A DNA stretch of 64,000 nucleotides from an uncultured Candidatus Saccharibacteria bacterium (GTDB taxonomy: Bacteria > Patescibacteriota > Minisyncoccia > Portnoybacterales > UBA2143), in NCBI GenBank assembly GCA_964413015.1, contig CAYPQZ010000014.1:459-64458 (forward strand), given 5' to 3'. Below the pieces are notes generated by a model that was not told where the DNA came from, did not search any database, and saw only the letters and a list, made by a program, of their open reading frames with translations. Position numbers and translations under genes: made by a program. This document shows, piece after piece, positions 23,081 to 64,000 of the stretch; the first letter of the stretch is position 1; every line of letters starts with the position of its first letter.

Positions 23081-23166
23081 AATTTTGACAAGGGGAAACT
23101 GATAAGAACAGTTTTAAAATGACGCCCTTGTGCTCAAGGGACATCATTTTAAGGACTGTCCTTACC
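23081..23166. repeat. composite palindromic repeat (GATAAGAACAG..ATGACGCCCTTGTGCTCAAGGGACATCAT..TTAAGGACTGTCCTTA)
   Basis: ~66-nt near-perfect palindrome plus the upstream aaattttgacaaggggaaact segment shared with 34371-34400. Generates a spurious N-terminal extension of folD. Confidence 0.8.
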
Positions 23167-25624: not shown

Positions 25625-26512
25625 TTAGATAAAGTCAGTAATTATTCTTTTTGCATCAGAGTAAGTTTTAACCCAATTGATCCTTTTGTCTCTTTTAAAC
25701 CAGGTCATTTGGCGGCGGGCGTACTGGCGGGTGTGATTGATAATTAATTCCTCGGCTTTTTTTAAAGAAATTTTACCTTGGAGGCATTGATGAATTTCCT
25801 GATAGCCGATGCTCGACAAGGCCGGCTGATTAAAAGAATATTTTTTGGACAATTTTTTAACTTCTTCAATTAGGCCAGTCCGGAGCATTTTTTTGACTCG
25901 CTGCTCTATTTTTTTATTAAGCGTTCCTTTGTTTAGCTTCAAACCAATCTCTAAAATTTCAAAAAGAGGTTGGCCTTTTTGTTTCTGTTTGGAGAATGGC
26001 TTTTTAGTCAGCAAGCAGACTTCTAAAGCGCGAATTAGCCGCCTTTTGTTGCGAGAATCAATAGCCGAAGCCGCTAAAGAATCTAATTTTTTGAGTCGTT
26101 GAAATAATTCCCGATTAGATAATTTTTCCAGCTTAATCCTTAGTTTTTTATCCGGTTTAACCCGAGGAATTTTTAAGTTATCAACAACTGCCTGGATGTA
26201 CAAGCCAGTTCCGCCGACTAAAAAAGGCAGCCGATTTCTTTTCTGGATATCTTGAATAGTTTTAACAGCCAGCTTTTTGTATTGAGCTAGGGTAAATTCT
26301 TGGTTTGGTTTGACAATGTCAACCAGAGCTATTTTTTTAGTTTTAGCAGTGCCAATGTCCATTTCTTGGTAAATTTGCCGCGAATCAGCATTAACTATTT
26401 CACCCTTAAATTTCTCAGCCAATTTAATAGCTAAGTCAGATTTGCCTGAAGCGGTTGGTCCGAGAATGACAATGAGTTTGTTATGCATAGTTTCGAGAAG
26501 TGTAAGGGACAT
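25625..26512 (-). CDS. miaA: tRNA dimethylallyltransferase
   Basis: P-loop GPTASGKS, DSRQIYQEMDIGTAK. Confidence 0.9.
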   Translation of the reverse strand: MSLTLLETMHNKLIVILGPTASGKSDLAIKLAEKFKGEIVNADSRQIYQEMDIGTAKTKKIALVDIVKPNQEFTLAQYKKLAVKTIQDIQKRNRLPFLVGGTGLYIQAVVDNLKIPRVKPDKKLRIKLEKLSNRELFQRLKKLDSLAASAIDSRNKRRLIRALEVCLLTKKPFSKQKQKGQPLFEILEIGLKLNKGTLNKKIEQRVKKMLRTGLIEEVKKLSKKYSFNQPALSSIGYQEIHQCLQGKISLKKAEELIINHTRQYARRQMTWFKRDKRINWVKTYSDAKRIITDFI

Positions 26513-26541
26513 TCCTTAAATTTTTAAACTGTACTTTAACC

Positions 26542-27585
26542 TTAACTTGCGTTTTTTAAGGCCAGAATAACCTTTTTCCTCCTTTTCTTCTCGTCGGAAG
26601 GAACGTCATCTTTTAACCGGGCGGCGGCTGTGCCTTTTCTTGGAGAATAAGCGGCTACGTAAGCCTGGCTAAAGCCGATTTCCCTGAATAAATCAACCGT
26701 TTTTCGGAACTGCTTTTTAGTCTCGCCCGGAAAGCCAACAATAATATCAGTGGATATTTTCGCCTCGGGTATGGCCCGACGGATTTTTTTTATCAAATTT
26801 TTATAATGCCCGACCGTATAGCCACGATTCATCTTTTTGAGGATTTGGTTATCGCCTGACTGAACCGGCAGATGAATTTCTTTGGAAATTTTATCGCCTT
26901 GGCCGATTGTTTTTATCAGTTCGTTTGACATATCCTTAGGGTGAGAAGTAAGGAATTTTATCTGGAAGTTTCCGGGTAGATTGTTGATTAATTTAAGCAA
27001 TACGGAGAAGCCAAGGACAGTCCTTAAATTTACGTCCTTAGAATAAGGACGTAAATTTAAGGACTGTCCTTGACGGCCTTGATAGCTATTCACATTTTGT
27101 CCTAAAAGAGTTATTTCTCTATATCCTTTTTTAATTAAAGTTTTCGCTTCCTTAATAATTTCATTAGCCGGTCGCGAGTATTCACGGCCGCGGGTATAGG
27201 GGACTACGCAATAGGAACAAAAATTATTGCAACCGGTCATAATGGGAAGCCAGGCATTTTTGGCTGATTGACGTTTGGGCTCCAATTCCAGATTAATAAT
27301 TGGCCAGATTTCATCAACTTGTTCCCGAAGCTGTTTTTTGTCCTTGAATAAAAGACAACCAGTTAAAACCAATTTGCTTTCTGGGTTTTGAAGACGGATT
27401 TTCTTTACTTGGCTGTAAACCCTGTTGACAGCTGACTGTCTGATCGAGCAAACGTTAATAACAACTAAATTAGCCGATTTAATTTGGTCGACTGATTGGT
27501 AGTTTTTTTTCTCTAATTGGGCGGCAATCTTTTCCGAATCTGATTTATTCATTTGACAACCGTAGGTGATAATATGGTATTTCAT
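26542..27585 (-). CDS. miaB: tRNA-2-methylthio-N6-dimethylallyladenosine synthase (radical SAM MTTase)
   Basis: MTTase N-domain (MKYHIITYGCQMN), radical SAM CNNFCSYC, TRAM. Start reassigned from 27669, which translates a repeat. Carries an in-frame 61-nt palindrome at 27012-27072. Confidence 0.88.
   Translation of the reverse strand: MKYHIITYGCQMNKSDSEKIAAQLEKKNYQSVDQIKSANLVVINVCSIRQSAVNRVYSQVKKIRLQNPESKLVLTGCLLFKDKKQLREQVDEIWPIINLELEPKRQSAKNAWLPIMTGCNNFCSYCVVPYTRGREYSRPANEIIKEAKTLIKKGYREITLLGQNVNSYQGRQGQSLNLRPYSKDVNLRTVLGFSVLLKLINNLPGNFQIKFLTSHPKDMSNELIKTIGQGDKISKEIHLPVQSGDNQILKKMNRGYTVGHYKNLIKKIRRAIPEAKISTDIIVGFPGETKKQFRKTVDLFREIGFSQAYVAAYSPRKGTAAARLKDDVPSDEKKRRKKVILALKNAS
27012..27072. 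repeat. perfect 61-nt palindrome (29-nt arms, 3-nt centre) of the GGACNGTCC family inserted in-frame in miaB
   Basis: caaggacagtccttaaatttacgtcctta-gaa-taaggacgtaaatttaaggactgtccttg. Encodes ~20 extra residues (LNLRPYSKDVNLRTVLGFSV) between conserved MiaB blocks. Confidence 0.85.
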
Positions 27586-27615
27586 ATCTGCTTGGGAGAA
27601 GCTAATCTTTAAAAA

Positions 27616-27700
27616 TTTAAGGATTATCATACGATAAGAACAGTCCTTAAAATGATGTCCCTTGAGCACAAGGGCGTCATTTTAAGGACTGTTCTTATCT
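27616..27700. repeat. composite palindromic repeat (reverse orientation of the 23101 copy)
   Basis: aaatttaaggattatcat + gataagaacagtccttaaaatgatgtcccttgagcacaagggcgtcattttaaggactgttcttatc. Confidence 0.8.
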
Positions 27701-30295: not shown

Positions 30296-31082
30296 TAAAA
30301 AGATAGTCATTGCTAACTGGAAAATGAATCCGGCAACCTTAAAAGAAGCCGAGCGTCTTTTTAGCACGTTGGATGAACGCATTGAAATGAGCGGGAATTT
30401 AGAAACAATCATCTGTCCTCCTTTTGTCTATTTGTCTCCTTTAATTAATCTGTCAAAACACAATTTAGTTTTTGGCGGTCAGGACTGTTTTTGGGAAAAG
30501 CAGGGCGCTTATACCGGAGAAGTTTCTTCAGCAGAACTTAAAAGCTTAGGCTGTGAATACGTGCTTATCGGCCATTCAGAGAGGAAAAGATATTTTCAGG
30601 AAGATGATTCAATGATTAATAAAAAGCTGAAGGCCGCTTTAGCCAGTCGGCTAATTCCGGTACTTTGTGTTGGAGAGGAGATTAGAGATGATTTTGATTC
30701 TGAAGGGCGAGCGCTTGGCGAACTCAATCCAGTGATTGCCGAACAAATTGAGAAAGCGCTGATTGATATTAACCCTACTCGGGTTAGTGACATAATTATT
30801 GCTTATGAACCGGTTTGGGCGATTAGCACAACAGTTGATAAAAAAGATTGTTCTTCTAATGAAGCTATGAAAGCGGCTTTGTTTATCCGTAAGATATTAA
30901 TTAAACTTTACAGCCGACTGGTTGCTGAAAAAGTTAGAATTATTTACGGGGGCAGCGTTGATAGCCTGAATGTGACGGATTATGTTGAAGGAGCCAACTT
31001 GGACGGTGTTTTGGTCGGTGGAGCCTCCTTAAACGCCAGTGAGTTTGTAAGAATAATTGAGAGATTGAAGGCTGTGTCTTAA
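30288..31082 (+). CDS. tpiA: triosephosphate isomerase
   Basis: ANWKMN, IGHSERK, AYEPVWAIST, GGASL. Confidence 0.9.
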   Translation: MDNKKIVIANWKMNPATLKEAERLFSTLDERIEMSGNLETIICPPFVYLSPLINLSKHNLVFGGQDCFWEKQGAYTGEVSSAELKSLGCEYVLIGHSERKRYFQEDDSMINKKLKAALASRLIPVLCVGEEIRDDFDSEGRALGELNPVIAEQIEKALIDINPTRVSDIIIAYEPVWAISTTVDKKDCSSNEAMKAALFIRKILIKLYSRLVAEKVRIIYGGSVDSLNVTDYVEGANLDGVLVGGASLNASEFVRIIERLKAVS

Positions 31083-31085
31083 ATT

Positions 31086-31130
31086 TTTAAGGACTGTCCT
31101 TATCGTTGGCGCGTCTCAAGGGGTATTAAA
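31086..31130. repeat. partial GGACNGTCC-family repeat
   Basis: ttaaggactgtccttatc...gcgtctcaaggggtat. Confidence 0.6.
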
Positions 31131-31273: not shown

Positions 31274-32446
31274 ATGAAATCACTTCGGGATTTTAATTTT
31301 AATAATAAGCGGGTTTTAATAAGGGTTGGCTTTAATGTTCCCTTCTTTTTGGGAGAAAGCAGCAGAATTGATGATGAAGAGGATTGGCGGATACAAGCCA
31401 CTTTGCCGACTATTAAATATTTAGTTGAGCATAAAGCTAAACTTATTCTGTTAACCCATTTGGGCAGGCCCGAAGGGAAGATTGACGAAAAACTGCGGTT
31501 GGATATGATAAGCGAAAGATTGACGGAACTTTTGAAATTGCCGGTCGTTAAATTAAATGATTGCCTTGGCCCTGAAGTTGAAATGCAGATAAGAAAAATG
31601 GCTCCTGGAGATATAGTTTTGTTAGAAAATATTCGTTTTCATCCGGGAGAAGAAGCAAATAGCCTGGATTTTTCCAAAAAAATCGCTGCTTTGGGAGACA
31701 TTTATGTTAACGACGCTTTTTCAGTGAGTCACAGAAATCATGCTTCGGTGGTTGGTCTGCCTAAATATTTACCGAGTTGTTTTGGTCTGCTTTTTGAAAA
31801 AGAGGTTCAAACGCTTTCCAAGGTTTTGGACCAGCCGGAACATCCTTTGACAGCAATTATCGGCGGAGGGAAAATATCAACTAAAATCAAGTTCGTTAAG
31901 AATTTTTTGAATAGATCCGACAACTTGCTTTTAGCTGGAGCTTTGGCTAACACGGTGATTAACGCTAAAGGGTTTGCCATTGGCCAGTCAGTTTCGGAAA
32001 AAAGCATGATTGGAGAAGTTAAAAAACTTAATTTGACCAGCACTAAGCTTCATATACCGGTTGATGTAGTTGTTTCTAAAGATGTTTCCGGAAAGGCATC
32101 CAGCCGAATTTCTCCAGTAGGCAATACAGCTGAAGACGAAATGATTCTTGATATTGGGCCGGATACGATTCAAATATTTTCCCAAGTAATTTCTCAGTCC
32201 AAAATGATTATCTGGAATGGACCTTTAGGATTTCTTGAGACGGAGAAATTCAGCTTAGGAAGTGAAGCAATTGCTAATAAAATAGCTGAGAGTTATAATT
32301 TTTCATTGGTTGGCGGAGGCGATACAGTAGCCTTTTTAGAAAAGTTAAAATTAATAGATAAAATAACACATATTTCTACCGGCGGGGGTGCTATGCTTAA
32401 ATTTCTAGCTGGTGAAAAACTGCCCGGGATAGAAGCCTTGAAATAG
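31274..32446 (+). CDS. pgk: phosphoglycerate kinase
   Basis: RVLIRVGFNVP, hinge and nucleotide-binding motifs (GGGDTVA). Start moved from 31178 to MKSLRDF. Confidence 0.85.
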   Translation: MKSLRDFNFNNKRVLIRVGFNVPFFLGESSRIDDEEDWRIQATLPTIKYLVEHKAKLILLTHLGRPEGKIDEKLRLDMISERLTELLKLPVVKLNDCLGPEVEMQIRKMAPGDIVLLENIRFHPGEEANSLDFSKKIAALGDIYVNDAFSVSHRNHASVVGLPKYLPSCFGLLFEKEVQTLSKVLDQPEHPLTAIIGGGKISTKIKFVKNFLNRSDNLLLAGALANTVINAKGFAIGQSVSEKSMIGEVKKLNLTSTKLHIPVDVVVSKDVSGKASSRISPVGNTAEDEMILDIGPDTIQIFSQVISQSKMIIWNGPLGFLETEKFSLGSEAIANKIAESYNFSLVGGGDTVAFLEKLKLIDKITHISTGGGAMLKFLAGEKLPGIEALK

Positions 32447-32454
32447 TCTTTGAG

Positions 32455-32482
32455 ACAGTCCCCAGAATGCTGGGGACTGTCC
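32455..32482. repeat. GGGGACTGTCCCC variant palindrome
   Basis: gacagtcccc-agaatgct-ggggactgtc (10-nt arms). Confidence 0.65.
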
Positions 32483-32501
32483 CCAAGGCTCAAAAAATAT
32501 T

Positions 32502-34271: not shown

Positions 34272-34506
34272 AAATTTAAGGATTGTCATTGAGGATCATG
34301 TCCCTTTACAGAAGGCAAAGGGCGTGTCCGCCTATCCGCCTCTGAAGGGAAAGGACGACTCCTTAAATTTTGACAAGGGGAAACAGATAAGACAAACTGA
34401 TAAGAACAGTCTTTAAAATGACGCCCTTGTGCTCAAGGGGCATCGTTTTAAGGACTGTCCTTATCATCAGCGTATCCCAAGGGACATCATTTTAAGGACT
34501 GCCTTT
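34262..34506. repeat. ~245-nt cluster of nested palindromic repeats (GGACNGTCC family, two composite copies)
   Basis: aaatttaaggattgtcatt; ccctttacagaaggcaaaggg; gataagaacagtctttaaaatgacgcccttgtgctcaaggggcatcgttttaaggactgtccttatc (34399-34465); plus a further partial copy. Confidence 0.8.
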
Positions 34507-35005: not shown

Positions 35006-35357
35006 CCAAGCAAGTGGATAGTCGGTCGCCTTAGGCGACAGGAAAGTCCGGGCACCATATAATGGCAGTGGGTAACGCCCACCGTCCGCAAGGATAGGGA
35101 AAGTGCCACAGAGACAATGTTTCTTCATTTTAGGGGGAATCTCCTAAAAAGGGGTAAAAGTGAAAAGTGAGGGCCTAAGAATCCTCTCATCCGGCAGAAA
35201 TGTCGCGATGCGGTAAACCCTGCCTGGTGCAAGAGCAAAGTGTAGCTCGCTTGAGCCTGAGAGTAATCTCCGGCCTAGATAGATGACTATCCAAAACCCG
35301 CCTTTGCCCTACGGGCTTCGGCGAGGTGAGACAGAACCCGGCTTATAGCTTGCTTGG
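35006..35357 (+). ncRNA. rnpB: RNase P RNA (bacterial type A)
   Basis: P1 pairing ccaagcaag...cttgcttgg. Conserved GGAAAGTCCGGGC (P4 5' strand), ACAGAGA, AAAAGTGAAA and ACAGAACCCGGCTTA (P4 3' strand). Followed by a T-run. Confidence 0.85.
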
Positions 35358-35404
35358 GTTTTTTTATTCTTGATTTTTAGGTAAAAATCATTAAAATCAA
35401 AGTA

Positions 35405-39046: not shown

Positions 39047-39090
39047 GAATTGTCCTTAAAGAAATTTAAGGATTGTCATTTTAAGGACTG
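39047..39090. repeat. GGACNGTCC-family palindromic repeat
   Basis: gaattgtccttaaagaaatttaaggattgtcattttaaggactgtccttta. Confidence 0.7.
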
Positions 39091-39109
39091 TCCTTTAATC
39101 GGCAATAAA

Positions 39110-51461: not shown

Positions 51462-52148
51462 ATGGCTTTATCTTCTTTGGAAAAATCTATTGGCGTTGAG
51501 TTTAAGAACAAGGATTTGCTTCAGCAGTCCTTGATCCATCGTTCCTATTTAAATGAAAATCCGGATTTCCGTTTAAAAGATAATGAACGGCTTGAATTTT
51601 TAGGAGACGCGGTGTTGGAAATGGCAGTTACCGAGCATCTTTACGATAATTATCCCAATCCGGAAGGCGAATTGACTAACTGGCGGGCCGCTTTGGTCAA
51701 TGCCAAAATGTTAGCCAAGGTGGCTAGTCGGCTAGAAGTAAACAACCATTTACTTTTGAGCCGCGGAGAGAAAAAAGATATTGGTAGGGCCCGTCAATAT
51801 ATTTTAGCCGACGCGTTTGAGGCCCTAATCGGAGCGATTTTTCTGGATCAGGGATACGATAAAGTCAGCAAGTTCATTGAAGGCAATATTTTAAAGGAAC
51901 TGCCCAAAATTATTTCGCAAAAGCTTTACAAAGATCCTAAAAGCGACTTTCAAGAGAGATCTCAGGAAAGGGTCGGAGTTACTCCTACATATGAAGTCCT
52001 TAAGGAATGGGGTCCTGACCATGCTAAAAACTTTATAGTCGGCCTTTATTTGGGAGAAGAATTAATAGCTCAAGGACAGGGCGTTTCCAAGCAGGAAGCC
52101 CAGGAAAAAGCGGCCGAAGAGGCCCTAAAGACGAAAAAATGGGAATAA
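51462..52148 (+). CDS. rnc: ribonuclease III
   Basis: RNase III signature ERLEFLGDAVLEMAVTEHLY and C-terminal dsRBD. Confidence 0.9.
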   Translation: MALSSLEKSIGVEFKNKDLLQQSLIHRSYLNENPDFRLKDNERLEFLGDAVLEMAVTEHLYDNYPNPEGELTNWRAALVNAKMLAKVASRLEVNNHLLLSRGEKKDIGRARQYILADAFEALIGAIFLDQGYDKVSKFIEGNILKELPKIISQKLYKDPKSDFQERSQERVGVTPTYEVLKEWGPDHAKNFIVGLYLGEELIAQGQGVSKQEAQEKAAEEALKTKKWE

Positions 52149-53174: not shown

Positions 53175-53207
53175 AGCCGTGCTATCATAATAGTACGGTT
53201 TTCTTCT
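53175..53207 (+). terminator. rho-independent terminator
   Basis: agccgtgcta-tcataa-tagtacggtt hairpin (with G-U pair) followed by ttttcttct. Confidence 0.5.
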
Positions 53208-53210
53208 ATT

Positions 53211-53223
53211 GGGGACTGTCCCC
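53211..53223. repeat. GGGGACTGTCCCC palindrome
   Basis: Same variant as at 32455-32482. Lies within the spurious 5' extension of the trmD ORF call. Confidence 0.6.
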
Positions 53224-53238
53224 AAAAATAAAATAGTC

Positions 53239-54094: not shown

Positions 54095-56566
<2,472 letters not shown>

Positions 56567-56629
56567 CTATATATTTTTTGACAGGAACAGGTTTCTGTTG
56601 TCTGCTAAATATATGGGGTGTTGATACAG

Positions 56630-56657
56630 GTTGAGATATGAGAATTCTTATCTCAAC
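56630..56657. repeat. inverted repeat GTTGAGATA-N10-TATCTCAAC (candidate recombinase core site)
   Basis: gttgagatatgagaattcttatctcaac, 65 nt after the 16S 3' end and 40 nt before the first integrase ORF. Confidence 0.5.
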
Positions 56658-56695
56658 TAGTAGGTGTTGGCCGAAAAGCCTTAAATATCGGCCAT

Positions 56696-57730
56696 ATGGG
56701 ACAACTACACAAGATTTGCAATTTGACTAAAGAACCTTGTTTAATACAGACAGGGTTTTTTAGTTTTATGAATACACAACAATTACTATATAAGAAAGCA
56801 CCACGATCCATTGACATTTTTAATAGAAATACAAAGAAAGCACCACGATCTAGTAACAATTTAGCTATTTCAAGTATAATTCCTGAGTTTTTAATCTACG
56901 CTAAATTTGAAAAAAGATTTGCCAATGAGTCCATAATTAAATACCAAGACTGTTTTAGGGGTTTTATAAGAGAAGTTGGAGATGTTTTTTTAAGTGATTT
57001 AAATACAGAGCATTTTAGTCAATTAAAGCAGAATCTTTTTAGCCGGGGGATTAGTGAAGCAAGGGTAGCTAGTGTTATTTTCTCAATGAAGAGTTTATTA
57101 AATTATTGTAAAGAGGTTAAGCATTTAAAAGTAATTAGTTCTAGGAAAATAAGATCTCCAAGACGGCCCAGGAGGGAGGTTATTTTTTTAAGTAATGAAG
57201 AAATTAGAAAATTTATAAAAGTAATAGATATAAAATCAACTTATGGATTAAGATTCAGAACATTAGTTGAAGTTCTTCTTGGTACTGGAATGAGAATATC
57301 AGAAGCATTATCTTTAGATCGTGATTCAATTGATTATGCAAAACGAGAAGTTAAAATTATCGGTAAAGGGAATAAAGAAAGGATTGTGTTTTTTAATAAT
57401 AGATCTCTAGAGTGGATTAGAAAGTATCTATCCGAGAGATGGGATGCTGAACAACCTATATTTATAACGCATGGAAACAATAGACGATTAAGTCGTAGTG
57501 GCGTTATGAGAGATTTTAAGAGATACAGGGATAAAGCCGGTATTAAAAAGAAAGTTAGTCCTCATATACTTCGTCATACTGTAGCTACAAATCTACTTTT
57601 TAATGGTTGTCCAATTTCGCATGTAAAAGAAATTCTTGGCCATACGCGCTTAGAAACAACTTGTAAATATTATTTAGGATTAGATAAGCGAAAAGCCAAA
57701 CAAGCACATAATAAGTTTCTACAATATTGA
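56696..57730 (+). CDS. tyrosine site-specific recombinase (phage integrase family), copy 1
   Basis: Core-binding SAM-like N-domain. Catalytic R (RISEALSL), H-x-x-R (HILRHT), and LGH...TT.KYY with the Tyr nucleophile. Alternative start at 56768. Confidence 0.85.
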   Translation: MGQLHKICNLTKEPCLIQTGFFSFMNTQQLLYKKAPRSIDIFNRNTKKAPRSSNNLAISSIIPEFLIYAKFEKRFANESIIKYQDCFRGFIREVGDVFLSDLNTEHFSQLKQNLFSRGISEARVASVIFSMKSLLNYCKEVKHLKVISSRKIRSPRRPRREVIFLSNEEIRKFIKVIDIKSTYGLRFRTLVEVLLGTGMRISEALSLDRDSIDYAKREVKIIGKGNKERIVFFNNRSLEWIRKYLSERWDAEQPIFITHGNNRRLSRSGVMRDFKRYRDKAGIKKKVSPHILRHTVATNLLFNGCPISHVKEILGHTRLETTCKYYLGLDKRKAKQAHNKFLQY

Positions 57731-57772
57731 TAGAAATAAAATCAAAAGTATCTTTTTCGTAGGTATATAGGG

Positions 57773-57801
57773 TTGACAATCTTTAAAAAGAAATGATAAT
57801 A
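57773..57801 (+). promoter_or_regulatory. sigma70-like promoter
   Basis: TTGACA-16/17 nt-GATAAT immediately upstream of the 57809 ORF. Confidence 0.4.
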
Positions 57802-57808
57802 TGTCAAT

Positions 57809-58234
57809 ATGAAAGATAAAAGGAATAATCTGATTATTAGAAAATCTGATTATAAAAGGAATAAAGGAGCCTTTATCTGGGAAGGTAAAAAAGAAGATTA
57901 TACAGAGCTTAAGGAAACAAGAAAATGGAGATGTCTCAAGTGCCACCGAATACTTGCAAATAATGTAGAGAATGATATAATTACGGTTAAAGGAGAAGGA
58001 AGACAAGAAATTAAGATCAGATTTAAAGCAATACGATGTATTTGCCCAGGTTCAAAAAGAAAAGGAACTGAAGGATGTAATACTGATAACAGACTTGTCT
58101 CTTATGTAGATCTCCTGTCGGAAAAATACGAACCGATTCAACTCGTTAAAACTGATTTAAAAATACAAAAAGAAATCGAAGAAAGTAGAAATAAAAATAT
58201 TCAGAATAAGATAGAAGAATTGAGTAATTTGTAA
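57809..58234 (+). CDS. hypothetical Cys-rich (zinc-ribbon-like) protein between the two recombinase genes
   Basis: CLKCH..., CICPGS..., GC spacing suggests a Zn ribbon. No family assignment. Confidence 0.45.
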   Translation: MKDKRNNLIIRKSDYKRNKGAFIWEGKKEDYTELKETRKWRCLKCHRILANNVENDIITVKGEGRQEIKIRFKAIRCICPGSKRKGTEGCNTDNRLVSYVDLLSEKYEPIQLVKTDLKIQKEIEESRNKNIQNKIEELSNL

Positions 58235-58316
58235 TTAACAAGATGGTCAGGTTAGGAGGATGCTATATGTACCCTCTTAAAAAAATCTAGTATTTGGCTA
58301 GTTGTAAAACGTGTTA

Positions 58317-58352
58317 TTAATCCCGTGCATAATTTTATGTGCGGGATTTTTA
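58317..58352 (+). terminator. hairpin plus T-run (terminator)
   Basis: atcccgtgcat-aatttt-atgtgcgggat (11-bp stem with two G-U pairs) followed by ttttaatt. Confidence 0.45.
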
Positions 58353-58355
58353 ATT

Positions 58356-59288
58356 ATGAAGATAAGAGAATTACTAAAAGTAATAAAAGAGGGAACAAAA
58401 GGAAAGAAATACCTTATTAGTATTTTAATACCTGATTTTATAGACTGGCTTTCCCTGGATTTAAATTTGGCTCCTCAAACATTAGAGAAGCATAAGGAAT
58501 GTCTCGATCATGTTATTCGTTATATTGGAGATTTAGACATAAGAGAGATGACATCTGTTGATGTTTTAAATATAAAAAAAGAGATGAATAAAAAGAAATT
58601 AAGCCCAGCACGTATTAATAGTATTATTTTTGCACTACGAAAATTATTAAGATTTTGCGATTCTGTTTTAAATATTAAGGTCCTTGATCCAGCTAAAATG
58701 ATTCCATTAAAAATCAAACAAAAGCAGGTTGTATATTTAACTAATAAAGAAATCGATATATTTAGAAAAGCAATTAATACATCAACAAGATACGGGAAGC
58801 GTTTTAGAGCCTTGTTTGAAACTTTGCTTAGTTCGGGTTTACGCATAAGCGAAGCTTTGTCTTTAGATCGTGATTCAATTAATTACGAAAAGAAAGAGGC
58901 TAATATTGTTGGTAAAGGAGGAAGACCTAGGACTGTTTATTTCAATGATGATGCAATAACTCGAATCAATATTTATTTAGAAACTAGATGGGACGATGAA
59001 CCAGCACTTTTTGTTACTCATGGTGGTGAACCAACTAGATTAAAAAGAGGAAGCGTTGAGCAAGAATTTAGTAGGTATAGGAAATTTGTAAATATAAAGA
59101 AAAAAGTTACTGCCCATACTCTAAGACATTCGTTCTGCACAAATTTACATCATCATGGACTTGATATCCTATGGATTAAAGAATTAGCCGGGCATAGAGA
59201 TATTCAAACTACAGCTAAATATTACATTGGTACAAGCAAAAAGAAAATCAAAGAAGCCCACCGTAAATATTTGAATTTTAATAATTAA
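58356..59288 (+). CDS. tyrosine site-specific recombinase, copy 2 (paralog of 56696)
   Basis: Same architecture and motifs (LRISEALSLDRDSI, HTLRHSF, LAGH...TTAKYY); ~45% identity to copy 1 by eye. Start moved from 58311. Confidence 0.85.
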   Translation: MKIRELLKVIKEGTKGKKYLISILIPDFIDWLSLDLNLAPQTLEKHKECLDHVIRYIGDLDIREMTSVDVLNIKKEMNKKKLSPARINSIIFALRKLLRFCDSVLNIKVLDPAKMIPLKIKQKQVVYLTNKEIDIFRKAINTSTRYGKRFRALFETLLSSGLRISEALSLDRDSINYEKKEANIVGKGGRPRTVYFNDDAITRINIYLETRWDDEPALFVTHGGEPTRLKRGSVEQEFSRYRKFVNIKKKVTAHTLRHSFCTNLHHHGLDILWIKELAGHRDIQTTAKYYIGTSKKKIKEAHRKYLNFNN

Positions 59289-59326
59289 TTAATAAGTTAA
59301 TTTTCGTTTAAGGAGTCAGACATAAC

Positions 59327-60850
59327 TTGAAAAAGTTAGTTACTTATAACGGTAGCATGTCTGGCTTCCTAAATGGGAATAGCTACCGTTATATGAATAA
59401 AGAATTAGGAACATTTAATGAGATAATAGAAGAAGCAAAGAAGAATAAAACATTTAATACGGGGTCAATAGTACCTAATGAAAGCGAAGTAGAAGAAATG
59501 GAAAGAGATGATGAATATTCAAGAGAAGAAAAGAAAAAGAAAATCATAAAAGCTAAAGCAAAAATTAAAGATAATATTAAGCAGAAAAAGAAAGTGCAAA
59601 AATTACTTTTAAATCCAAGGTTACTTTATAACATAAAAAGTCAATTTGAGAAATTAGGGATTGCTGGAGAAACTAGAAATTCTTTAATGATTTATTTGGC
59701 TCTAACAAGTCGAATGATGGACAAACCAATAAGTATAGTTAATAAAGGTGATTCTTCTTCCGGTAAATCTTATATGATTAATTTGATTCTAAGGCTTTTT
59801 CCTAAAAACGCTTATATTGAAATGACTGCCGCAACTGCTCAAAGCTTTTATCATGCTGGAAAGGATGATTTTAAACATAAGATTATTATTATTTATGAGA
59901 GAAAGGGCTCAGAGAATAGCGATTATTCAATTCGTTCTTTTCAATCCGAAGGAAATTTAAAGCTTCAAATTACAGTGAAGAATAAAAAAACAGGCAATTT
60001 CGAAGTTAAACGCAAAGAGGTACTCGGGCCAGTTGGCTTTTTAACAACTACTACTGATCCACACATTCATGATGAAAATGAAACCAGGGTTTTTAGCCTA
60101 TACACCAATGAGAGTGTAATACAAACGGCAAGAATATTTAAAGCAAGTAGTGCGGGATATAAAGGAATTAATCCAATTAGTAATCTCAGATTAAAGAAAT
60201 TTAAAAAACTCCAGCGATTATTAAAAACATATAAGATTTCAATTCCTTATGTGGACGACCTAATAAGCGTTTTCCCTCATAAACCAGTTAGAGTTAGAAG
60301 AGATTTTCCAAGATTTCTTACTTTAATATCGGTTGTTACTTTACTACACCAACATCAAAGAGAAAAAAAAATTATTAAAAAAGAAGAATATTTAGTGTCA
60401 AGTCTAGCTGATTATTATATCGCCAAGATTATCGCTGAAAGAATGTTAAAGCAAACTATTTTTGAGATAGCTCCAAAGACAAAACAAGTTATTAAAGTCG
60501 CCAAAAAGATTATTAATTTAAAAATTAAAAAGCAAACCCTAAATGCTAAGAGTGGGATAAGTGTAATGGCCGGGCTAAATCCAACCTTTAATATTACAGA
60601 ATTAGCCAGAAAGATTGGATGGGAGTATAAAACAACTTACAAATGGTTCAAACCAGCGTTAGAGAAAGGTTATTTTACCATAGAAGAAGAACAGAGAGGT
60701 AGACAAGCTGCAACGTATAAAATCAATAAAATGAAAAATAATCAAATAATATTGCCAGAGGTTAATAATATGATTAAGAAATATCCGCTTAATAAAGAAA
60801 GAATCTATAATCCAATTACAGGAGAATACTTGGATTTAGGTAAAAAGTGA
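59327..60850 (+). CDS. P-loop NTPase, putative plasmid/phage replication (primase-helicase/D5-like) protein
   Basis: Walker A KGDSSSGKSY, and a Walker B-like IIIIYER. Size and context fit replication proteins of mobile elements. Family is uncertain. Confidence 0.5.
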   Translation: MKKLVTYNGSMSGFLNGNSYRYMNKELGTFNEIIEEAKKNKTFNTGSIVPNESEVEEMERDDEYSREEKKKKIIKAKAKIKDNIKQKKKVQKLLLNPRLLYNIKSQFEKLGIAGETRNSLMIYLALTSRMMDKPISIVNKGDSSSGKSYMINLILRLFPKNAYIEMTAATAQSFYHAGKDDFKHKIIIIYERKGSENSDYSIRSFQSEGNLKLQITVKNKKTGNFEVKRKEVLGPVGFLTTTTDPHIHDENETRVFSLYTNESVIQTARIFKASSAGYKGINPISNLRLKKFKKLQRLLKTYKISIPYVDDLISVFPHKPVRVRRDFPRFLTLISVVTLLHQHQREKKIIKKEEYLVSSLADYYIAKIIAERMLKQTIFEIAPKTKQVIKVAKKIINLKIKKQTLNAKSGISVMAGLNPTFNITELARKIGWEYKTTYKWFKPALEKGYFTIEEEQRGRQAATYKINKMKNNQIILPEVNNMIKKYPLNKERIYNPITGEYLDLGKK

Positions 60851-61261
60851 TGAGGTTCTTGTAGGTATGTTTTATGGATACGGAATAACCAACTTGCACT
60901 TTTATAAGAAAATAAACTTAATATTTTGTTACTACACTTCTATAAGAATGAACAAGAGAATATTAGTTTAATGGCTCTATTAATCAATTAAAAATAAAAA
61001 AAGTGGAAGTAGAGATTTCTATATTTACAAAAACATATCCATAAAGCTTTTGTATTGTACGTAGAAGCGTAGTAACAAATAAAAATATGGATAATTCTAA
61101 TATTATATGAAAAAAAAGAAGCAAAAAGAAAAAGAATCTTTAAGAATTAAGAGATTAAAAGCTAAAAATAGAAGAGACATTGGATATTCAATGGTTGATT
61201 TACTTCCTTTAAGCTTGAGTATTAGTAAAAAATTGAATAAGAAATAGTTTTATATTAATCC

Positions 61262-61810
61262 ATGAATAACAAATCTGTCAGAAATCGTCAGAAAATAACA
61301 CCAAAACAAATAGATTACTGGACGGAACCAAAACGGCAACTTTTTGAAATGGTTCTTGAAAGTTCTTTAAAGCGTCATGAGATGGCCAAGGAACTTAATA
61401 TAAGTACTAGAACGGTTCAAAGATGGATTAAGGATCCTTCGTTCCATGAGGCCTTAAGCATGAGCTCTGATGCTTGGAAAATGCAGATTACAGCACGGCG
61501 CTTAGATCTTATTAAAGAGCTTATAAAAGGATTAAGAAAAAGAATGGAAATATCAATAAATCAGGTATCTCCAGAAGTTTTACTAACAGAATATAGAAAG
61601 CTTTTATTTGATATCCCATTGAGAATATCTTCGGTTGCTATTCAACAAAATGTTTTCCCTAAAAAAATAACATCGCTTCCATGTTTATCTCCTAAAAAAA
61701 TAAAAATTGTAGAAAAAGCTGTTTTAAAATCACAGGGATATAACGAATTAAATGTCTCAAAAGAAGATATAGAAGCTGTTAGGAAAGAAAATGCATTAAA
61801 TAAACAGTAG
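61262..61810 (+). CDS. HTH-domain protein (terminase small subunit-like or regulator)
   Basis: AKELNISTRTVQRWIKDP helix-turn-helix near the N-terminus. Confidence 0.5.
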   Translation: MNNKSVRNRQKITPKQIDYWTEPKRQLFEMVLESSLKRHEMAKELNISTRTVQRWIKDPSFHEALSMSSDAWKMQITARRLDLIKELIKGLRKRMEISINQVSPEVLLTEYRKLLFDIPLRISSVAIQQNVFPKKITSLPCLSPKKIKIVEKAVLKSQGYNELNVSKEDIEAVRKENALNKQ

Positions 61811-61860
61811 TGTAAGCGCAAGAAAAGATTCTTTTTCTTAAAAATTAATAAGAGAAAAAT

Positions 61861-61896
61861 AAAAAAAGACCGACAGGGTATTAGCCCATCGGCCTT
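61861..61896 (-). terminator. rho-independent terminator (minus strand; weakly bidirectional)
   Basis: On the minus strand: ggccgaugggcuaauacccugucgguc followed by U7, just after the stop of the 61913-62278 gene. Confidence 0.55.
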
Positions 61897-61912
61897 TCTT
61901 GCTTCTCAGCGA

Positions 61913-62278
61913 CTAGAAGGGGAGATCTTCAATTTTTTCTATAACAGGAATTTCTCCAATTTCGTCAATCTGTTTTGTGAAATTACATCCAGGATAGGTA
62001 ATACATCCAAGGAAAGGACCATTTTTACCACGCCTTAATACCATTGGAGCTCCACATTTTTCGCAAAGCTGTTCTTCTTTGTTTTTCTTTTTATCATTAT
62101 TTGCTGTCATATTGCCATTAAATACTTTCTTTAAATCTTTGTATAGCTTATCGGCTTCTTGAACTGAATCTGCGCGAATATTTATCATTAGCGATTTTCT
62201 AATCACCTTCCCATCTGGTTTTTTATCAATTGTCTCATTTATCTGAATTCGATTAAAATCATGATTAATTGTAGCCAT
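61913..62278 (-). CDS. small protein with topoisomerase-type C4 zinc finger
   Basis: CEKCGAPMVLRRGKNGPFLGCITYPGC matches the zf-C4_Topoisom pattern. Confidence 0.55.
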   Translation of the reverse strand: MATINHDFNRIQINETIDKKPDGKVIRKSLMINIRADSVQEADKLYKDLKKVFNGNMTANNDKKKNKEEQLCEKCGAPMVLRRGKNGPFLGCITYPGCNFTKQIDEIGEIPVIEKIEDLPF

Positions 62279-62375
62279 AATTTTTATTAGAATAAATTAA
62301 TTGATTATTTCTAATTAAGCTGTTCGACTTTTTAGAATTGTAAATTCTAACAGCTTACAAGATAAAAGCGTAATC

Positions 62376-62768
62376 TTACTTTTCTTTTTCAATCAGCTTT
62401 AGCATTTTCATTGATAGCCATTTTCTTTTGTTAAAGATAATATGATCGTAAAGTTCAATATCTAGGATCTCGCCAGCTTTCTTTAATCTTTGCGTGACTT
62501 CTATATCATCCTGCGATGGTTCAAGATCACTGCTTGGATGATTGTGCAGTACAATTATCATCTTTGCTGAATTCATCACTGCTGGTTTAAATGTTTCTCT
62601 TGGATGGACGAGACAAGCATTGAGAGTTCCTAAACTAATCAATTCTGCTTTTGTAATCTTTGTTCGTGAGTCAAAATAGATTCCAATAAAATGCTCTTTA
62701 TACCAATCGGTTATTAATGTTCTAGCTATTCTTACTGATTCAATTGGATGATCAATAATTTTAGCCAT
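62376..62768 (-). CDS. RadC-like JAB/MPN domain protein
   Basis: JAMM-like motif HNHPS..EPS..D in a 130-aa protein; typical of RadC in mobile elements. Confidence 0.72.
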   Translation of the reverse strand: MAKIIDHPIESVRIARTLITDWYKEHFIGIYFDSRTKITKAELISLGTLNACLVHPRETFKPAVMNSAKMIIVLHNHPSSDLEPSQDDIEVTQRLKKAGEILDIELYDHIIFNKRKWLSMKMLKLIEKEK

Positions 62769-62794
62769 AATATTTTCCTTTCTCCCTTGCGGGA

Positions 62795-62980
62795 TTAGTA
62801 TTCTATATCAATCGCAAAATTGTGATTGTTGACCTTATCACATGCATCTTCCCAAAGCTTGAACCATTCCTGATTTGTCTTTGGTTTTTCTCTTTTTTCT
62901 TCTTCAAGGATTGAGTCCATGGTTTCAACAATAATCTTATTCTTTGTTTCCGAATCAAGGTCATGAAAGTAAATTTTCAT
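62795..62980 (-). CDS. hypothetical small protein
   Basis: 61-aa ORF in operon-like arrangement with the RadC gene. Confidence 0.3.
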   Translation of the reverse strand: MKIYFHDLDSETKNKIIVETMDSILEEEKREKPKTNQEWFKLWEDACDKVNNHNFAIDIEY

Positions 62981-63051
62981 TTTTTTTCACCTCCCTTCTT
63001 TTATTTGCCAGGTATCGACCTACCCGGCTTTAATTAATTTATCGACTTTTT

Positions 63052-63258
63052 TTAGCTAACGCAGTGAACGTTTCTTTCAATATCTTTTCTATCTAGTTCT
63101 ACTAATGAAGGATGTTTCATTAATTTTTCAACCGCATCCTTTTTGTCATCAGCTTTTATCTCAATTTCAAAGTCTGAAGCTGCGCAATGGCTTTTTAAAA
63201 AACAGGCATAAATCTTTTGCCTGCTTTTTGATCTCTTAGTCATATTTATCATCACCAC
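63052..63258 (-). CDS. hypothetical small protein
   Basis: 68-aa ORF. No family. Confidence 0.3.
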   Translation of the reverse strand: MVMINMTKRSKSRQKIYACFLKSHCAASDFEIEIKADDKKDAVEKLMKHPSLVELDRKDIERNVHCVS

Positions 63259-64000
63259 CTTTCTTGGTTATTTAGGAAATACTCTAGCTAAAAGAATTTC
63301 ATTCAATATATTTACTTCGCTCAAACCATTTCCAAATTACTCCCAAGACCCCGCGTTTTGCTTAAGCGATAACAACGCTGTATCAATAGCCAAGCTTTCG
63401 TCTGGAAATTTGAGTAGTAAAATTTATTAAGGAACTGGATTTTAATATTATTTAAAAAAGCAAAAACAGGGATATGTTTAAAGTTGGACTTTAAAATCCT
63501 TAAATAATAATTTTCTGGTCCACGCTAAGAAGATAATATCTAAATCTTTTAGTGGATTTTAATTTAGAAAACATATTTTGAGGGACTCAAAATTGTTGCT
63601 AAATTAAAAAAGAAAATTATTATTTAACTCAAAGGAATAAAACTTTAAACATATTTCAGTTTTTGCTATAATTTTTTATTAAAATCAGTTTCTTATTTAA
63701 ATTTCTACTCAAATTTTACAGATGAAAGCGTATGGCTTTACAGTGTTGTTATGTTTAAGCAAGACGCTTTGGATGTAATTTGGAATATATGGTTTCGAAG
63801 TAAATATATTAATGAAAAATTGATAGAGTATTGGTTTTGATTGAAGTAAATAAGGATGCAATAAAAAAAAATAGAGATTACTCTCTATTTTTTAATATCC
63901 ATTCCCCCCAGAGGTTATTTTTCAGAGATATTTAATTAGTACTCTGTGCGAAAAATTTCTGTTTTTGTTAAAATTTCAGGCCTAACTCTTGAAATTATTA

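What the first reader, a model, noticed from the sequence alone, without database searches (positions are those of the whole stretch)
27012..27072. Perfect 61-nt palindrome inserted in-frame inside the miaB coding sequence
The element has 29-nt perfect arms around a 3-nt centre. It sits within the radical-SAM MTTase gene and keeps the reading frame. It adds ~20 residues (…SLNLRPYSKDVNLRTVLGFSV…) between blocks that are normally close together in MiaB homologues: roughly 10 aa separate the NVN..G block from the LL..I..LPG block in canonical MiaB. Repeats of the same family are otherwise intergenic. In-frame palindromic element insertions into essential genes are the hallmark of Rickettsia RPEs, so this would be an analogous phenomenon in a CPR genome.
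Basis: partly seen in the sequence, partly recalled or inferred. Interest (0 to 1): 0.75.

Follow-up and report, generated by a model that had tools for sequence, protein, structure and literature searches.

The report
In-frame palindromic repeat inside MiaB
A perfect 61-base DNA palindrome from a dispersed repeat family sits in frame in a floppy loop of the tRNA-modifying enzyme MiaB of a tiny-genome (CPR) bacterium. Related species have kept it as a palindrome at the same codon through paired mutations, which closely parallels the "selfish DNA inside genes" known from Rickettsia.

Summary
Window 27012-27072 is a perfect palindrome with 29-nt arms and a 3-nt centre, about 8e-12 expected by chance. 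It lies in frame in a TRAM-less miaB (26542-27585, minus strand) of a Candidatus Portnoybacteria genome, and three independent assemblies contain it.

It belongs to a repeat family with a 13-bp core, AAGGACnGTCCTT. The family occurs as single units and as hairpin doublets, and every other copy in the window is intergenic.

Relative to basal orthologues it adds about 20 residues to a loop that AlphaFold models with low confidence.

New findings:
- The insertion is old. Eight other species carry a homologous 59-65-nt palindrome at the same codon.
- The arms stay complementary through double changes: 97.9% of positions paired, 12 of 29 pairs covarying, none changed on one side only.
- The palindrome is far more conserved than the gene's silent sites.
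- The element is also lost easily. A relative 95% identical to a carrier lacks it, and scars remain in several species.
- Relatives carry the same family in frame in the neighbouring miaA gene.
- More distant relatives carry unrelated palindromes in the same two loops.

Verdict: a real, Rickettsia-RPE-like phenomenon in a CPR lineage. How the element moves is unknown (no transposase, no target-site duplications). A role as a functional cis-element is not excluded.

The parts
27012..27072 (-). Perfect 61-nt palindrome (29-nt arms, 3-nt centre) in frame in miaB. It encodes QGQSLNLRPYSKDVNLRTVL. Each arm contains the 13-bp sub-palindrome AAGGAC(A/T)GTCCTT.
   Evidence: RNA hairpin -54.3 kcal/mol, z -11.6. 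DNA hairpin -31.6 kcal/mol.
27073..27081 (-). CAAGGCCGT (QGR), a 9-nt partial, degenerate copy of the element's terminus directly 5' of the palindrome. It is absent from L004 and L006. Similar partial copies lie upstream of the palindrome in L171, L172 and L173.
   Evidence: read directly from the sequences
26542..27585 (-). miaB coding sequence, TRAM-less, 347 aa from MKYHIITYGCQ. The 375-aa gene call runs upstream into the intergenic palindrome and is probably too long.
   Evidence: The model matches solved MiaB 7MJX at TM 0.87.
27633..27699 (.). Intergenic 67-nt doublet of the same family, between the divergent miaB and glycosyltransferase genes. Its centre, CCCTTG-AGCA-CAAGGG followed by CATTTT, is terminator-like on both strands.
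26504..26540 (-). Single unit (AAGGAATGTCCCTT on the sense strand) plus a degenerate second unit, in the miaB-miaA spacer. L006 has a copy at the orthologous position.
23101..23166 (.). Intergenic doublet in the SHMT-FolD spacer. The left arm is partly decayed.
31062..31105 (+). Two tandem single units at the TIM stop codon and TIM-PGK spacer. L167 has a copy at the orthologous position.
32445..32490 (.). Palindrome of the GGGGACTGTCCCC variant (type b-like core) in the PGK-RecJ spacer.
34275..34505 (.). Cluster in the RecJ-RNaseH spacer: a single unit (34275), a doublet (34398-34466) and a single unit (34491). L004/L005 have a 103-nt copy with the same terminal repeats at the orthologous position.
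39050..39095 (+). Three tandem single units upstream of a GT4 glycosyltransferase gene.
53205..53225 (+). Single GGGGACTGTCCCC unit upstream of trmD.

Best explanation
The palindrome is a copy of a short, non-autonomous palindromic repeat family with a 13-bp core, AAGGACnGTCCTT. The family occurs as single units and as hairpin-forming inverted doublets, an organisation like REP/REPIN or MITE elements. This copy landed in frame in a permissive, disordered loop of the radical-SAM barrel of MiaB, between strand ITLLGQNVNSY and helix FxxLLKxI. It persists there as a tolerated 20-residue passenger peptide, as Rickettsia palindromic elements do.

Shown here:
- The insertion predates the split of several Portnoybacteria species and is inherited at the same codon.
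- The arms stay complementary through strictly Watson-Crick double changes.
- The element is repeatedly lost by deletions that leave scars.
- The same family sits in frame in miaA in relatives.
- Unrelated palindromes occupy the same two loops in more distant relatives.

Inferred:
- Palindromy is kept mainly by a DNA-level process. One arm serves as template to correct the other (intrastrand template switching or gene conversion). The same process would flip the central loop.
- Reading-frame selection removes variants and loop orientations that create stop codons.
- The high conservation of the core reflects recognition by some family-specific protein, or conversion from other copies.
For: - Family and dispersal: ACAGTCCTTAAA gives 14 hits against 0.41 expected, and GGACAGTCC 8 against 0.14. 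Single units and doublets are seen, and all copies except the miaB one are intergenic.
- Insertion relative to orthologues.
- Disordered loop with the fold intact: pLDDT is below 50 at residues 175-188 while the model mean is 84, and TM is 0.87 to 7MJX.
- Orthologous palindromes at the same codon in L004/5, L006, L173, L167, L168, L171 and L172.
- Covariation: 97.9% of cells paired against 29-50% when the partner is slid. 12 of 29 pairs change on both sides, none on one side only, and 0 of 500 shuffles reach the observed score.
- The palindrome is 57/61 and 54/61 identical between species whose miaB is 69-71% identical overall and about 50% at third positions (P = 4e-6 and 1e-3). 18/20 and 17/20 third positions inside it are identical.
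- Loss: L169 is 95% identical to L167 in miaB but lacks exactly 60 nt there and lacks two intergenic copies. Each empty site keeps a partial core. Partial-deletion forms occur in P0023 and L174.
- Second host gene: perfect 63-65-nt palindromes lie in frame in miaA of L171, L172 and L174. 7 of 120 MiaA clusters carry the frame-2 peptide at one site.
- Independent families in the same loops: L175 miaB and miaA.
- Loop flips GAA/TTC and AAA/TTT. Only one orientation is stop-free in the window element.
Against: - No transposase or RAYT was found in the 64-kb window, and no target-site duplications appear at filled/empty sites. Mobility is therefore inferred only from copies at non-orthologous sites.
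- Many copies sit at the same intergenic spacers in species with saturated silent-site divergence, which is unusual for purely selfish DNA.
- All single units point the same way relative to the downstream gene.
- The outer 17 nt are invariant across three species, which arm-to-arm correction alone cannot explain.
- The single-gene NJ tree cannot separate one old insertion with many losses from repeated insertion.
- The peptide searches meant to find further host genes failed, so only two host genes are documented. They are neighbours in one operon.
Confidence: 0.62

Rival explanations
1. The palindromes are functional cis-elements: binding sites for a dimeric DNA-binding protein that recognises the 6-1-6 core AAGGACnGTCCTT (a regulator, a nucleoid protein or an uptake-signal receptor). 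The copy in miaB is a conserved regulatory site embedded in coding sequence, and selection on the site keeps it a palindrome.
For: - The core is itself a 13-bp palindrome, typical of dimer operators.
- The outer arms are invariant across species with saturated silent sites.
- Copies keep the same positions across species: the TIM/PGK, RecJ/RNaseH and miaB/miaA spacers, and miaB itself.
- Single units have a uniform orientation relative to downstream genes.
- Copies are all-or-none per genome. L169 and L170 have zero copies, as expected if a trans-acting factor was lost.
- Lineage-specific core variants differ by compensated changes, like dialects.
Against: - The neighbouring genes are unrelated housekeeping genes with no common theme.
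- Distance from the motif to the start codon ranges from 4 to about 90 nt.
- sigma-70-like promoter sites are not enriched around the copies: 3 found against 4.2 expected.
- The element is dispensable in close relatives.
- Unrelated palindrome families occupy the same loops.
- No candidate binding protein was identified.
Confidence: 0.2
2. Selection acts on the RNA. The 29-bp hairpin in the miaB-miaA mRNA is a processing or stability signal, for example an RNase III site or translation pause, that tunes expression of the two tRNA-modification genes.
For: - The RNA hairpin is very stable: -54.3 kcal/mol, z -11.6.
- RNase III is encoded in the window at 51462-52148.
- Both in-frame hosts, miaB and miaA, belong to one operon.
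- The intergenic doublets have terminator-like centres.
Against: - Covarying pairs change by full Watson-Crick swaps with almost no G-U intermediates: 0 pairs vary on one side only and G-U appears in 2 of 290 cells. This points to DNA-level symmetry more than RNA pairing.
- Single units cannot form a hairpin, because the loop would be 1 nt.
- The window copy has no U-tract after the stem.
- Close relatives do without the element.
Confidence: 0.1
3. It is not an insertion. The roughly 20 residues are an ancestral MiaB loop of this clade that happens to be palindromic, or the palindrome is an assembly artefact.
For: Orthologues at 67-72% identity carry nearly the same residues.
Against: - Basal and most other orthologues, and MiaBs across bacteria, have a short loop.
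- The sequence matches a dispersed intergenic family.
- About 8e-12 such palindromes are expected by chance.
- Three assemblies of this genome and eight other metagenomes show it.
- Both flanks continue the gene, unlike a fold-back chimera.
Confidence: 0.03

Closest known systems
Rickettsia palindromic elements (RPEs; Ogata et al. 2000, as summarised in PMC10969869)
   Same: Both are dispersed palindromic repeat families whose copies are inserted in frame in unrelated housekeeping genes. Both add a peptide segment without destroying the protein. Both occur in a reduced genome, are inherited at orthologous sites in related species, and also have intergenic copies.
   Different: RPEs are about 100-150 bp in ten Rickettsia-specific families. 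The element here is 59-65 nt, is a near-perfect hairpin, and is built from a 13-bp sub-palindromic core that also occurs as single units. The lineage is unrelated (Patescibacteria). Only two host genes are documented here, against dozens in Rickettsia. Sequence homology to RPEs was not tested and is not expected.
REP / REPIN elements (repetitive extragenic palindromes and their hairpin doublets, mobilised by RAYT transposases; PMC3733652)
   Same: Both have short palindromic units that occur as single units and as inverted doublets forming hairpins. Both are mostly extragenic and lack target-site duplications. In both, the family consensus is conserved within a lineage.
   Different: There is no terminal GTAG or CGTC tag, no RAYT gene in the 64 kb examined, and in-frame intragenic copies exist.
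Bacterial MITEs with intragenic in-frame copies or terminator-like structure (ERIC, BOX, QMITE1, SPRITE, Correia; reviewed in PMC10969869 and PMC2229807)
   Same: Both are small and non-autonomous, with terminal inverted repeats around a variable centre (the L004 copy is 103 nt). Occasional copies form in-frame fusions. The intergenic copies resemble bidirectional terminators.
   Different: No target-site duplications were seen and no parent insertion sequence was found. The arms make up the whole element, not just its ends.
DNA uptake sequences (Neisseria DUS, Pasteurellaceae USS)
   Same: Both involve a short conserved motif with lineage 'dialects'. The motif is often found as inverted pairs forming terminators, is tolerated inside coding regions, and spreads without transposase or target duplications.
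   Different: The density here is about 1 per 5-8 kb, against about 1 per kb for uptake sequences. The copies here are discrete 60-nt insertions, not motifs created by point mutation. No link to competence genes was tested.

Membership tests
Rickettsia palindromic elements (RPE) | Dispersed repeat family with several copies per genome | tested here: met
   14 motif hits against 0.41 expected in the window. Copies are present in L004, L006, L167, L168, L171 and L172.
Rickettsia palindromic elements (RPE) | Copies inserted in frame in protein-coding genes, with the ORF preserved | tested here: met
   miaB in 9 genomes and miaA in 3-4 genomes.
Rickettsia palindromic elements (RPE) | Element of about 100-150 bp belonging to RPE-1 to RPE-10, in the genus Rickettsia | tested here: not met
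   Length is 59-65 nt and the host is Portnoybacteria. Sequence comparison with RPE consensus sequences was not run.
Rickettsia palindromic elements (RPE) | Insert lies in a surface-exposed region compatible with the fold | tested here: inconclusive
   The insert has pLDDT below 50 and lies between a strand and a helix, and the rest of the model matches 7MJX at TM 0.87. Distance to the bound RNA and active site could not be measured because no coordinates were available.
REP / REPIN | Short imperfect palindromes occurring as single units and as inverted doublets that form hairpins | tested here: met
   Single units at 26504, 31089, 34275, 34491 and 39065-39091. Doublets at 23101, 27633, 34398 and in miaB.
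REP / REPIN | Conserved GTAG or CGTC tetranucleotide at one end (PMC3733652) | tested here: not met
   The termini are CAAGGAC or AGAGGGAC. CGTC occurs only internally, and only in type a.
REP / REPIN | A cognate RAYT (IS200/IS605-like Y1 transposase) in the genome | tested here: inconclusive
   None was found among the ORFs of the 64-kb window. The rest of the 317-kb contig and the genome were not available.
MITE | Terminal inverted repeats flanking a variable centre, total size 50-500 bp | tested here: met
   The L004 copy at 601-703 has the same 28-nt termini around a 47-nt centre.
MITE | Target-site duplications at the insertion | tested here: not met
   The filled/empty comparisons of L167 with L169 at three sites show no direct repeats, only partial core remnants.
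MiaB (tRNA ms2i6A37 methylthiotransferase), host gene | UPF0004 and radical-SAM domains, scoring above the equivalog cutoff | tested here: met
   PF00919 and PF04055. TIGR01574 scores 360.7 against 355.3.
MiaB (tRNA ms2i6A37 methylthiotransferase), host gene | C-terminal TRAM RNA-binding domain | tested here: not met
   The profile match ends at 367/437. The domain is absent from 119 of the 120 closest orthologues.
DNA uptake sequence | Motif density of about 1 per kb, genome-wide | tested here: not met
   8 exact core matches in 64 kb.

The most novel reading that the evidence does not exclude
The palindromes are not passengers. They would be a conserved, actively maintained cis-acting DNA (or RNA) element class of Portnoybacteria, recognised through the TTARGG...CCYTAA-framed core by a lineage-specific protein whose specificity co-evolves with the sites as 'dialects'. 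The copies inside miaB and miaA would then be dual-coding sequence, constrained at once as protein loop and as a perfect hairpin or operator. That would link control of the i6A/ms2i6A tRNA-modification operon to this system.
Probability: 0.2. Interest if true: 0.85.

Novelty: new variant of a known kind. Interest (0 to 1): 0.66.

Why it matters
In-frame palindromic repeats in housekeeping genes have been regarded as nearly a Rickettsia peculiarity. Full-text searches of the held library found no report of them in CPR/Patescibacteria. A second, unrelated reduced-genome lineage with the same behaviour suggests that small genomes with short spacers may push repeat elements into tolerant protein loops.

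The case is also unusually informative. The same palindrome can be followed at one codon through species whose silent sites are saturated. This gives a natural experiment on how a perfect DNA palindrome is maintained, flipped and deleted while it must also remain an open reading frame.

In practice, these repeats mislead gene callers. They produce false N-terminal extensions (P0001 and the FolD call) and spurious small ORFs. They also break short-read assemblies: the Logan contigs end at the upstream palindrome.

Tried and rejected
1. A word-indexed protein search with the three element-encoded peptides joined together, meant to find other host proteins, returned no candidates.
2. An exhaustive HMMER search of 1.84 billion representatives with the 30-aa insert peptide gave 0 hits at E <= 0.001. 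The query is too short for a library of that size, so the result is uninformative.
It returned mostly distant MiaBs. These served only as a background for loop length.
4. A viral-contig scan for the motif gave 0 matches.
5. Promoter reading: sigma-70-like sites are not enriched near the copies, and the motif can lie 4 nt from a start codon, so I set this aside.
6. Shine-Dalgarno reading: the AAGGA in the motif lies 17-22 nt from start codons, which is too far.
7. Assembly chimera: rejected.
8. 'Every variable insert in this loop is a palindromic element': not supported. Types c and d and the L008, L009 and L014 inserts show no inverted repeat.
9. Ogata et al. 2002 (Genome Res) is not held, so the RPE features cited come from the review PMC10969869.
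10. A second structure model without the insert was judged uninformative and was not run.

Full report
OBSERVATION

Window 27012-27072 is a perfect palindrome: CAAGGACAGTCCTTAAATTTACGTCCTTA / GAA / TAAGGACGTAAATTTAAGGACTGTCCTTG, with 29-nt arms that are 100% complementary and a 3-nt centre. The arm occurs nowhere else in the window at up to 3 mismatches. About 8e-12 such repeats are expected by chance in 64 kb.

The palindrome lies in ORF 26542..27669 on the minus strand. The ORF reads through it as QGQSLNLRPYSKDVNLRTVL. As single strands it would form a hairpin of -54.3 kcal/mol as RNA (z -11.6) and -31.6 kcal/mol as DNA.

HOST GENE AND ORGANISM

The ORF has UPF0004 and radical-SAM domains and passes the MiaB equivalog cutoff (TIGR01574, 360.7 bits against 355.3). 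The match stops at profile position 367 of 437, so the TRAM domain is absent. The probable start is MKYHIITYGCQ at 27585. The 375-aa gene call extends into an upstream repeat.

The closest database proteins are named Candidatus Portnoybacteria or Patescibacteria. Nearly all are also TRAM-less, at 311-395 aa. The window comes from JGI sample 3300001533, contig MLSed_10000008 (317 kb). Two Logan contigs from different sequencing runs are base-for-base identical over 4.5 kb, palindrome included. Gene order around miaB (GT2 divergent, then miaB-miaA, gatB, folD, SHMT) is conserved in all relatives fetched.

IT IS AN INSERTION IN A TOLERANT LOOP

In an alignment with 120 orthologues, the segment LLGQNVN...FLTSHP is 35-39 residues in the basal state (for example NVNSYQD-FPKLLK) and 57 residues here. 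Across 159 MiaB loci from many phyla the modal length of the slightly shorter GQNVN...SHP segment is 40. The solved Bacteroides uniformis MiaB (7MJV) has 13 fewer residues in this loop.

An AlphaFold model built on 43 sequences has mean pLDDT 84. It falls below 50 at residues 175-188, inside the insert, between strand 158-162 and helix 194-202. The model superposes on solved MiaB at TM 0.87 and rmsd 2.7 Å. I could not measure how close the loop comes to the bound RNA.

THE REPEAT FAMILY

The core of each arm, AAGGAC(A/T)GTCCTT, is itself a 13-bp palindrome. ACAGTCCTTAAA occurs 14 times at up to 1 mismatch against 0.41 expected, and GGACAGTCC occurs 8 times against 0.14 expected.

Copies are of two kinds:
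- Single units, sometimes in tandem: 26504, 31062-31105, 34275, 34491, 39050-39095.
- Inverted doublets of about 66 nt: 23101-23166, 27633-27699, 34398-34466.

There is also a GGGGACTGTCCCC variant at 32445-32490 and 53213. All copies except the miaB one are intergenic. The single match inside nusG has a mismatch and is probably chance.

The doublet centres (CCCTTG-NGCN-CAAGGG followed by CATTTT) score as bidirectional terminator-like sites. The miaB copy lacks that centre and the T-run. No transposase or RAYT is encoded in the window. The only recombinases are two tyrosine integrases in a low-GC island near the 3' end.

THE INSERTION IS OLD AND INHERITED

Homologous palindromes sit at exactly the same codon in eight other species from independent metagenomes.
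- Type a (core AAGGACnGTCCTT): L004/L005, L006, L173.
- Type b (core AGGGACnGTCCCT): L167, L168 (perfect 31-nt arms), L171 (perfect 31), L172 (perfect 28).

These are documented. Types a and b align without gaps over 61 nt.

The window's miaB is only 69-71% identical in DNA to L004 and L006, and about 50% identical at third codon positions, so silent sites are saturated. The palindrome, however, is 57/61 and 54/61 identical (P = 4e-6 and 1e-3 against the gene background). Inside it, 18/20 and 17/20 third positions are identical. The outer 17 nt are invariant in the three species.

PALINDROMY IS MAINTAINED

On ten aligned palindromes (eight from miaB, two from miaA), 97.9% of the 290 pair cells are Watson-Crick, against 29-50% when the partner column is slid by 1-3. 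Twelve of 29 pairs show changes on both sides, and no pair varies on one side only. G-U appears in only 2 cells. None of 500 shuffles reaches the observed covariation. Part of this signal is the single split between types a and b. Several pairs (8/54, 17/45 to 23/39, 1/61) nevertheless change within the types, and L174 adds two further compensated pairs.

The central triplets are reverse complements of one another between species (GAA in L168 against TTC in L172; AAA in L171/L172 miaA against TTT in L174 miaA). This is most simply explained by inversion of the loop. In the window element only the TTC orientation is free of stop codons.

Strict Watson-Crick symmetry together with loop flips points to a DNA-level process in which one arm templates the other. 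That step is inference. Arm-to-arm correction does not explain why the core sequence itself is invariant.

THE ELEMENT IS ALSO LOST

L169 is 95% identical to L167 in miaB (93% at third positions). It lacks exactly 60 nt at the site and keeps AGGGA, the first bases of the element. It also lacks the copies in the RNaseH/RecJ and PGK/TIM spacers, where it keeps AAGAGAGTCCTTA and CAAGGAC. The more distant L168 has the insert, so deletion in the L169 lineage is the parsimonious reading.

P0023 and L174 keep only the ends or the left arm. L169 and L170 have no core motif in 21 kb and 13 kb. On a rough NJ tree, carriers are interspersed with non-carriers. That tree has no support values, so it cannot separate one gain plus many losses from repeated gains. 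No target-site duplications are visible.

THE PHENOMENON IS NOT CONFINED TO miaB

In L171, L172 and L174 a perfect 63-65-nt type b palindrome lies in frame in the neighbouring miaA gene, in a different reading frame (GTVPKIQSLKQGLYLRDSP). L168 has a rearranged copy there. Seven of the 120 closest MiaA clusters carry this peptide at one site, between DIGTAK and IPHYLI. The window's MiaA does not. Type b is open in two of three frames and both are used. Type a is open in one frame.

In the more distant L175, the MiaB loop holds a decayed inverted repeat of an unrelated family (GTCATTCTGAGCGAAGCGAAGAATC...). The MiaA loop there holds a 34-nt palindrome with core TAGGGTCCGACCCT. Both loops have therefore received palindromes more than once. 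Many other inserts in the MiaB loop (types c and d, and L008, L009, L014) show no inverted repeat, so not every insert is demonstrably an element.

INTERPRETATION

The best-supported reading (about 0.62) is a REPIN/MITE-like palindromic repeat carried in frame in a permissive loop. That makes it a functional analogue of Rickettsia palindromic elements (PMC10969869), old and vertically inherited. It is kept palindromic by arm-to-arm correction under reading-frame selection, and it is prone to deletion.

Several facts resist a purely selfish reading:
- Copies keep the same positions at several spacers across saturated divergence.
- Single units have a uniform orientation.
- The core is invariant.
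- Copies are all-or-none per genome.
- No transposase or target duplication was found.

These facts keep alive a cis-element reading, meaning a protein-binding site or operator (about 0.2), and an RNA-level reading (about 0.1; RNase III is encoded at 51462-52148). Artefact or a purely ancestral loop is very unlikely (about 0.03).

COMPARISON AND NOVELTY

The element behaves like an RPE but is not a member of the RPE families. It differs in length and lineage, and it is built from a short core that also occurs as single units. It resembles REP/REPIN in organisation but lacks the GTAG/CGTC tag (PMC3733652), and no RAYT was seen. It resembles MITEs in having terminal inverted repeats around a variable centre (the L004 copy) but lacks target duplications.

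Full-text searches found no description of in-frame palindromic repeats in CPR/Patescibacteria. That is absence from the held library only. I rate it a new variant of a known kind, with interest 0.66.

Noticed in passing
window 26542-27585; orthologues P0002-P0120: MiaB in this clade lacks the C-terminal TRAM RNA-binding domain (the profile match ends at 367/437). Only 1 of the 120 closest orthologues (P0112) has PF01938.
   Followed up: partly
window 54095-57730: The 16S rRNA (54095-55494) is followed by a group II intron D1-D4 hit (55787-55879) and a LAGLIDADG endonuclease ORF (55817-56356). There is no 23S in the window.
   Followed up: no
window 56000-64000: GC drops from about 0.40 to about 0.30. 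The region has two tyrosine recombinases (56696-57730, 58311-59288), RadC (62376-62768), a Top1 zinc-ribbon ORF (61913-62278) and several ORFs with no Pfam hit. It is probably an integrated mobile element next to the rRNA gene.
   Followed up: partly
window 27586-27669 and 23119-23166: Gene calls run into intergenic palindromes. The 375-aa MiaB call (P0001) begins MLKGHHFKDCSY..., which is a translation of the 27633-27699 repeat. The FolD call starting at 23119 does the same. The likely true starts are 27585 and 23167.
   Followed up: partly
window 31062-31082: The last codons and the stop codon of triose-phosphate isomerase lie in a degenerate repeat unit (GAAGGCTGTGTCTTAA).
   Followed up: no
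L172 5028-5076, 9906-9964, 11362-11410, 20755-20826: L172 has a second family of perfect palindromes with core TTAGGAGTCCGACTCCTAA in the same genome as type b. Its frame, TTAGG...CCTAA, resembles the other cores, as if they were related by compensated changes.
   Followed up: partly
L175 14743-14807; window 23101-23166: The SHMT-FolD spacer holds a palindrome in both genomes, but from unrelated families, so the position is conserved without the sequence.
   Followed up: no
L002 and L003 (Logan contigs), position 1: Both short-read contigs end exactly at the intergenic palindrome upstream of miaB, so these repeats fragment assemblies.
   Followed up: no
L170 12512-13326: GyrB of the closest relative (P0002 genome) carries an intein (PF14890) and is 1075 aa. 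The window's GyrB is 641 aa.
   Followed up: no
window 35006-35361: An RNase P RNA (class A, 211 bits) lies between RNase H and the Bac_transf gene. In L171 the corresponding spacer holds a perfect 63-nt type b palindrome (1425-1487).
   Followed up: no
P0040, P0005 (MiaB orthologues): Some orthologues have duplicated half-elements in the loop (EGLSLKYSPQ-REGLSLRYSPS..., and VPLNFVPLNF). This suggests slippage or nested re-insertion at the same site. DNA was checked only for P0005 (L171).
   Followed up: partly
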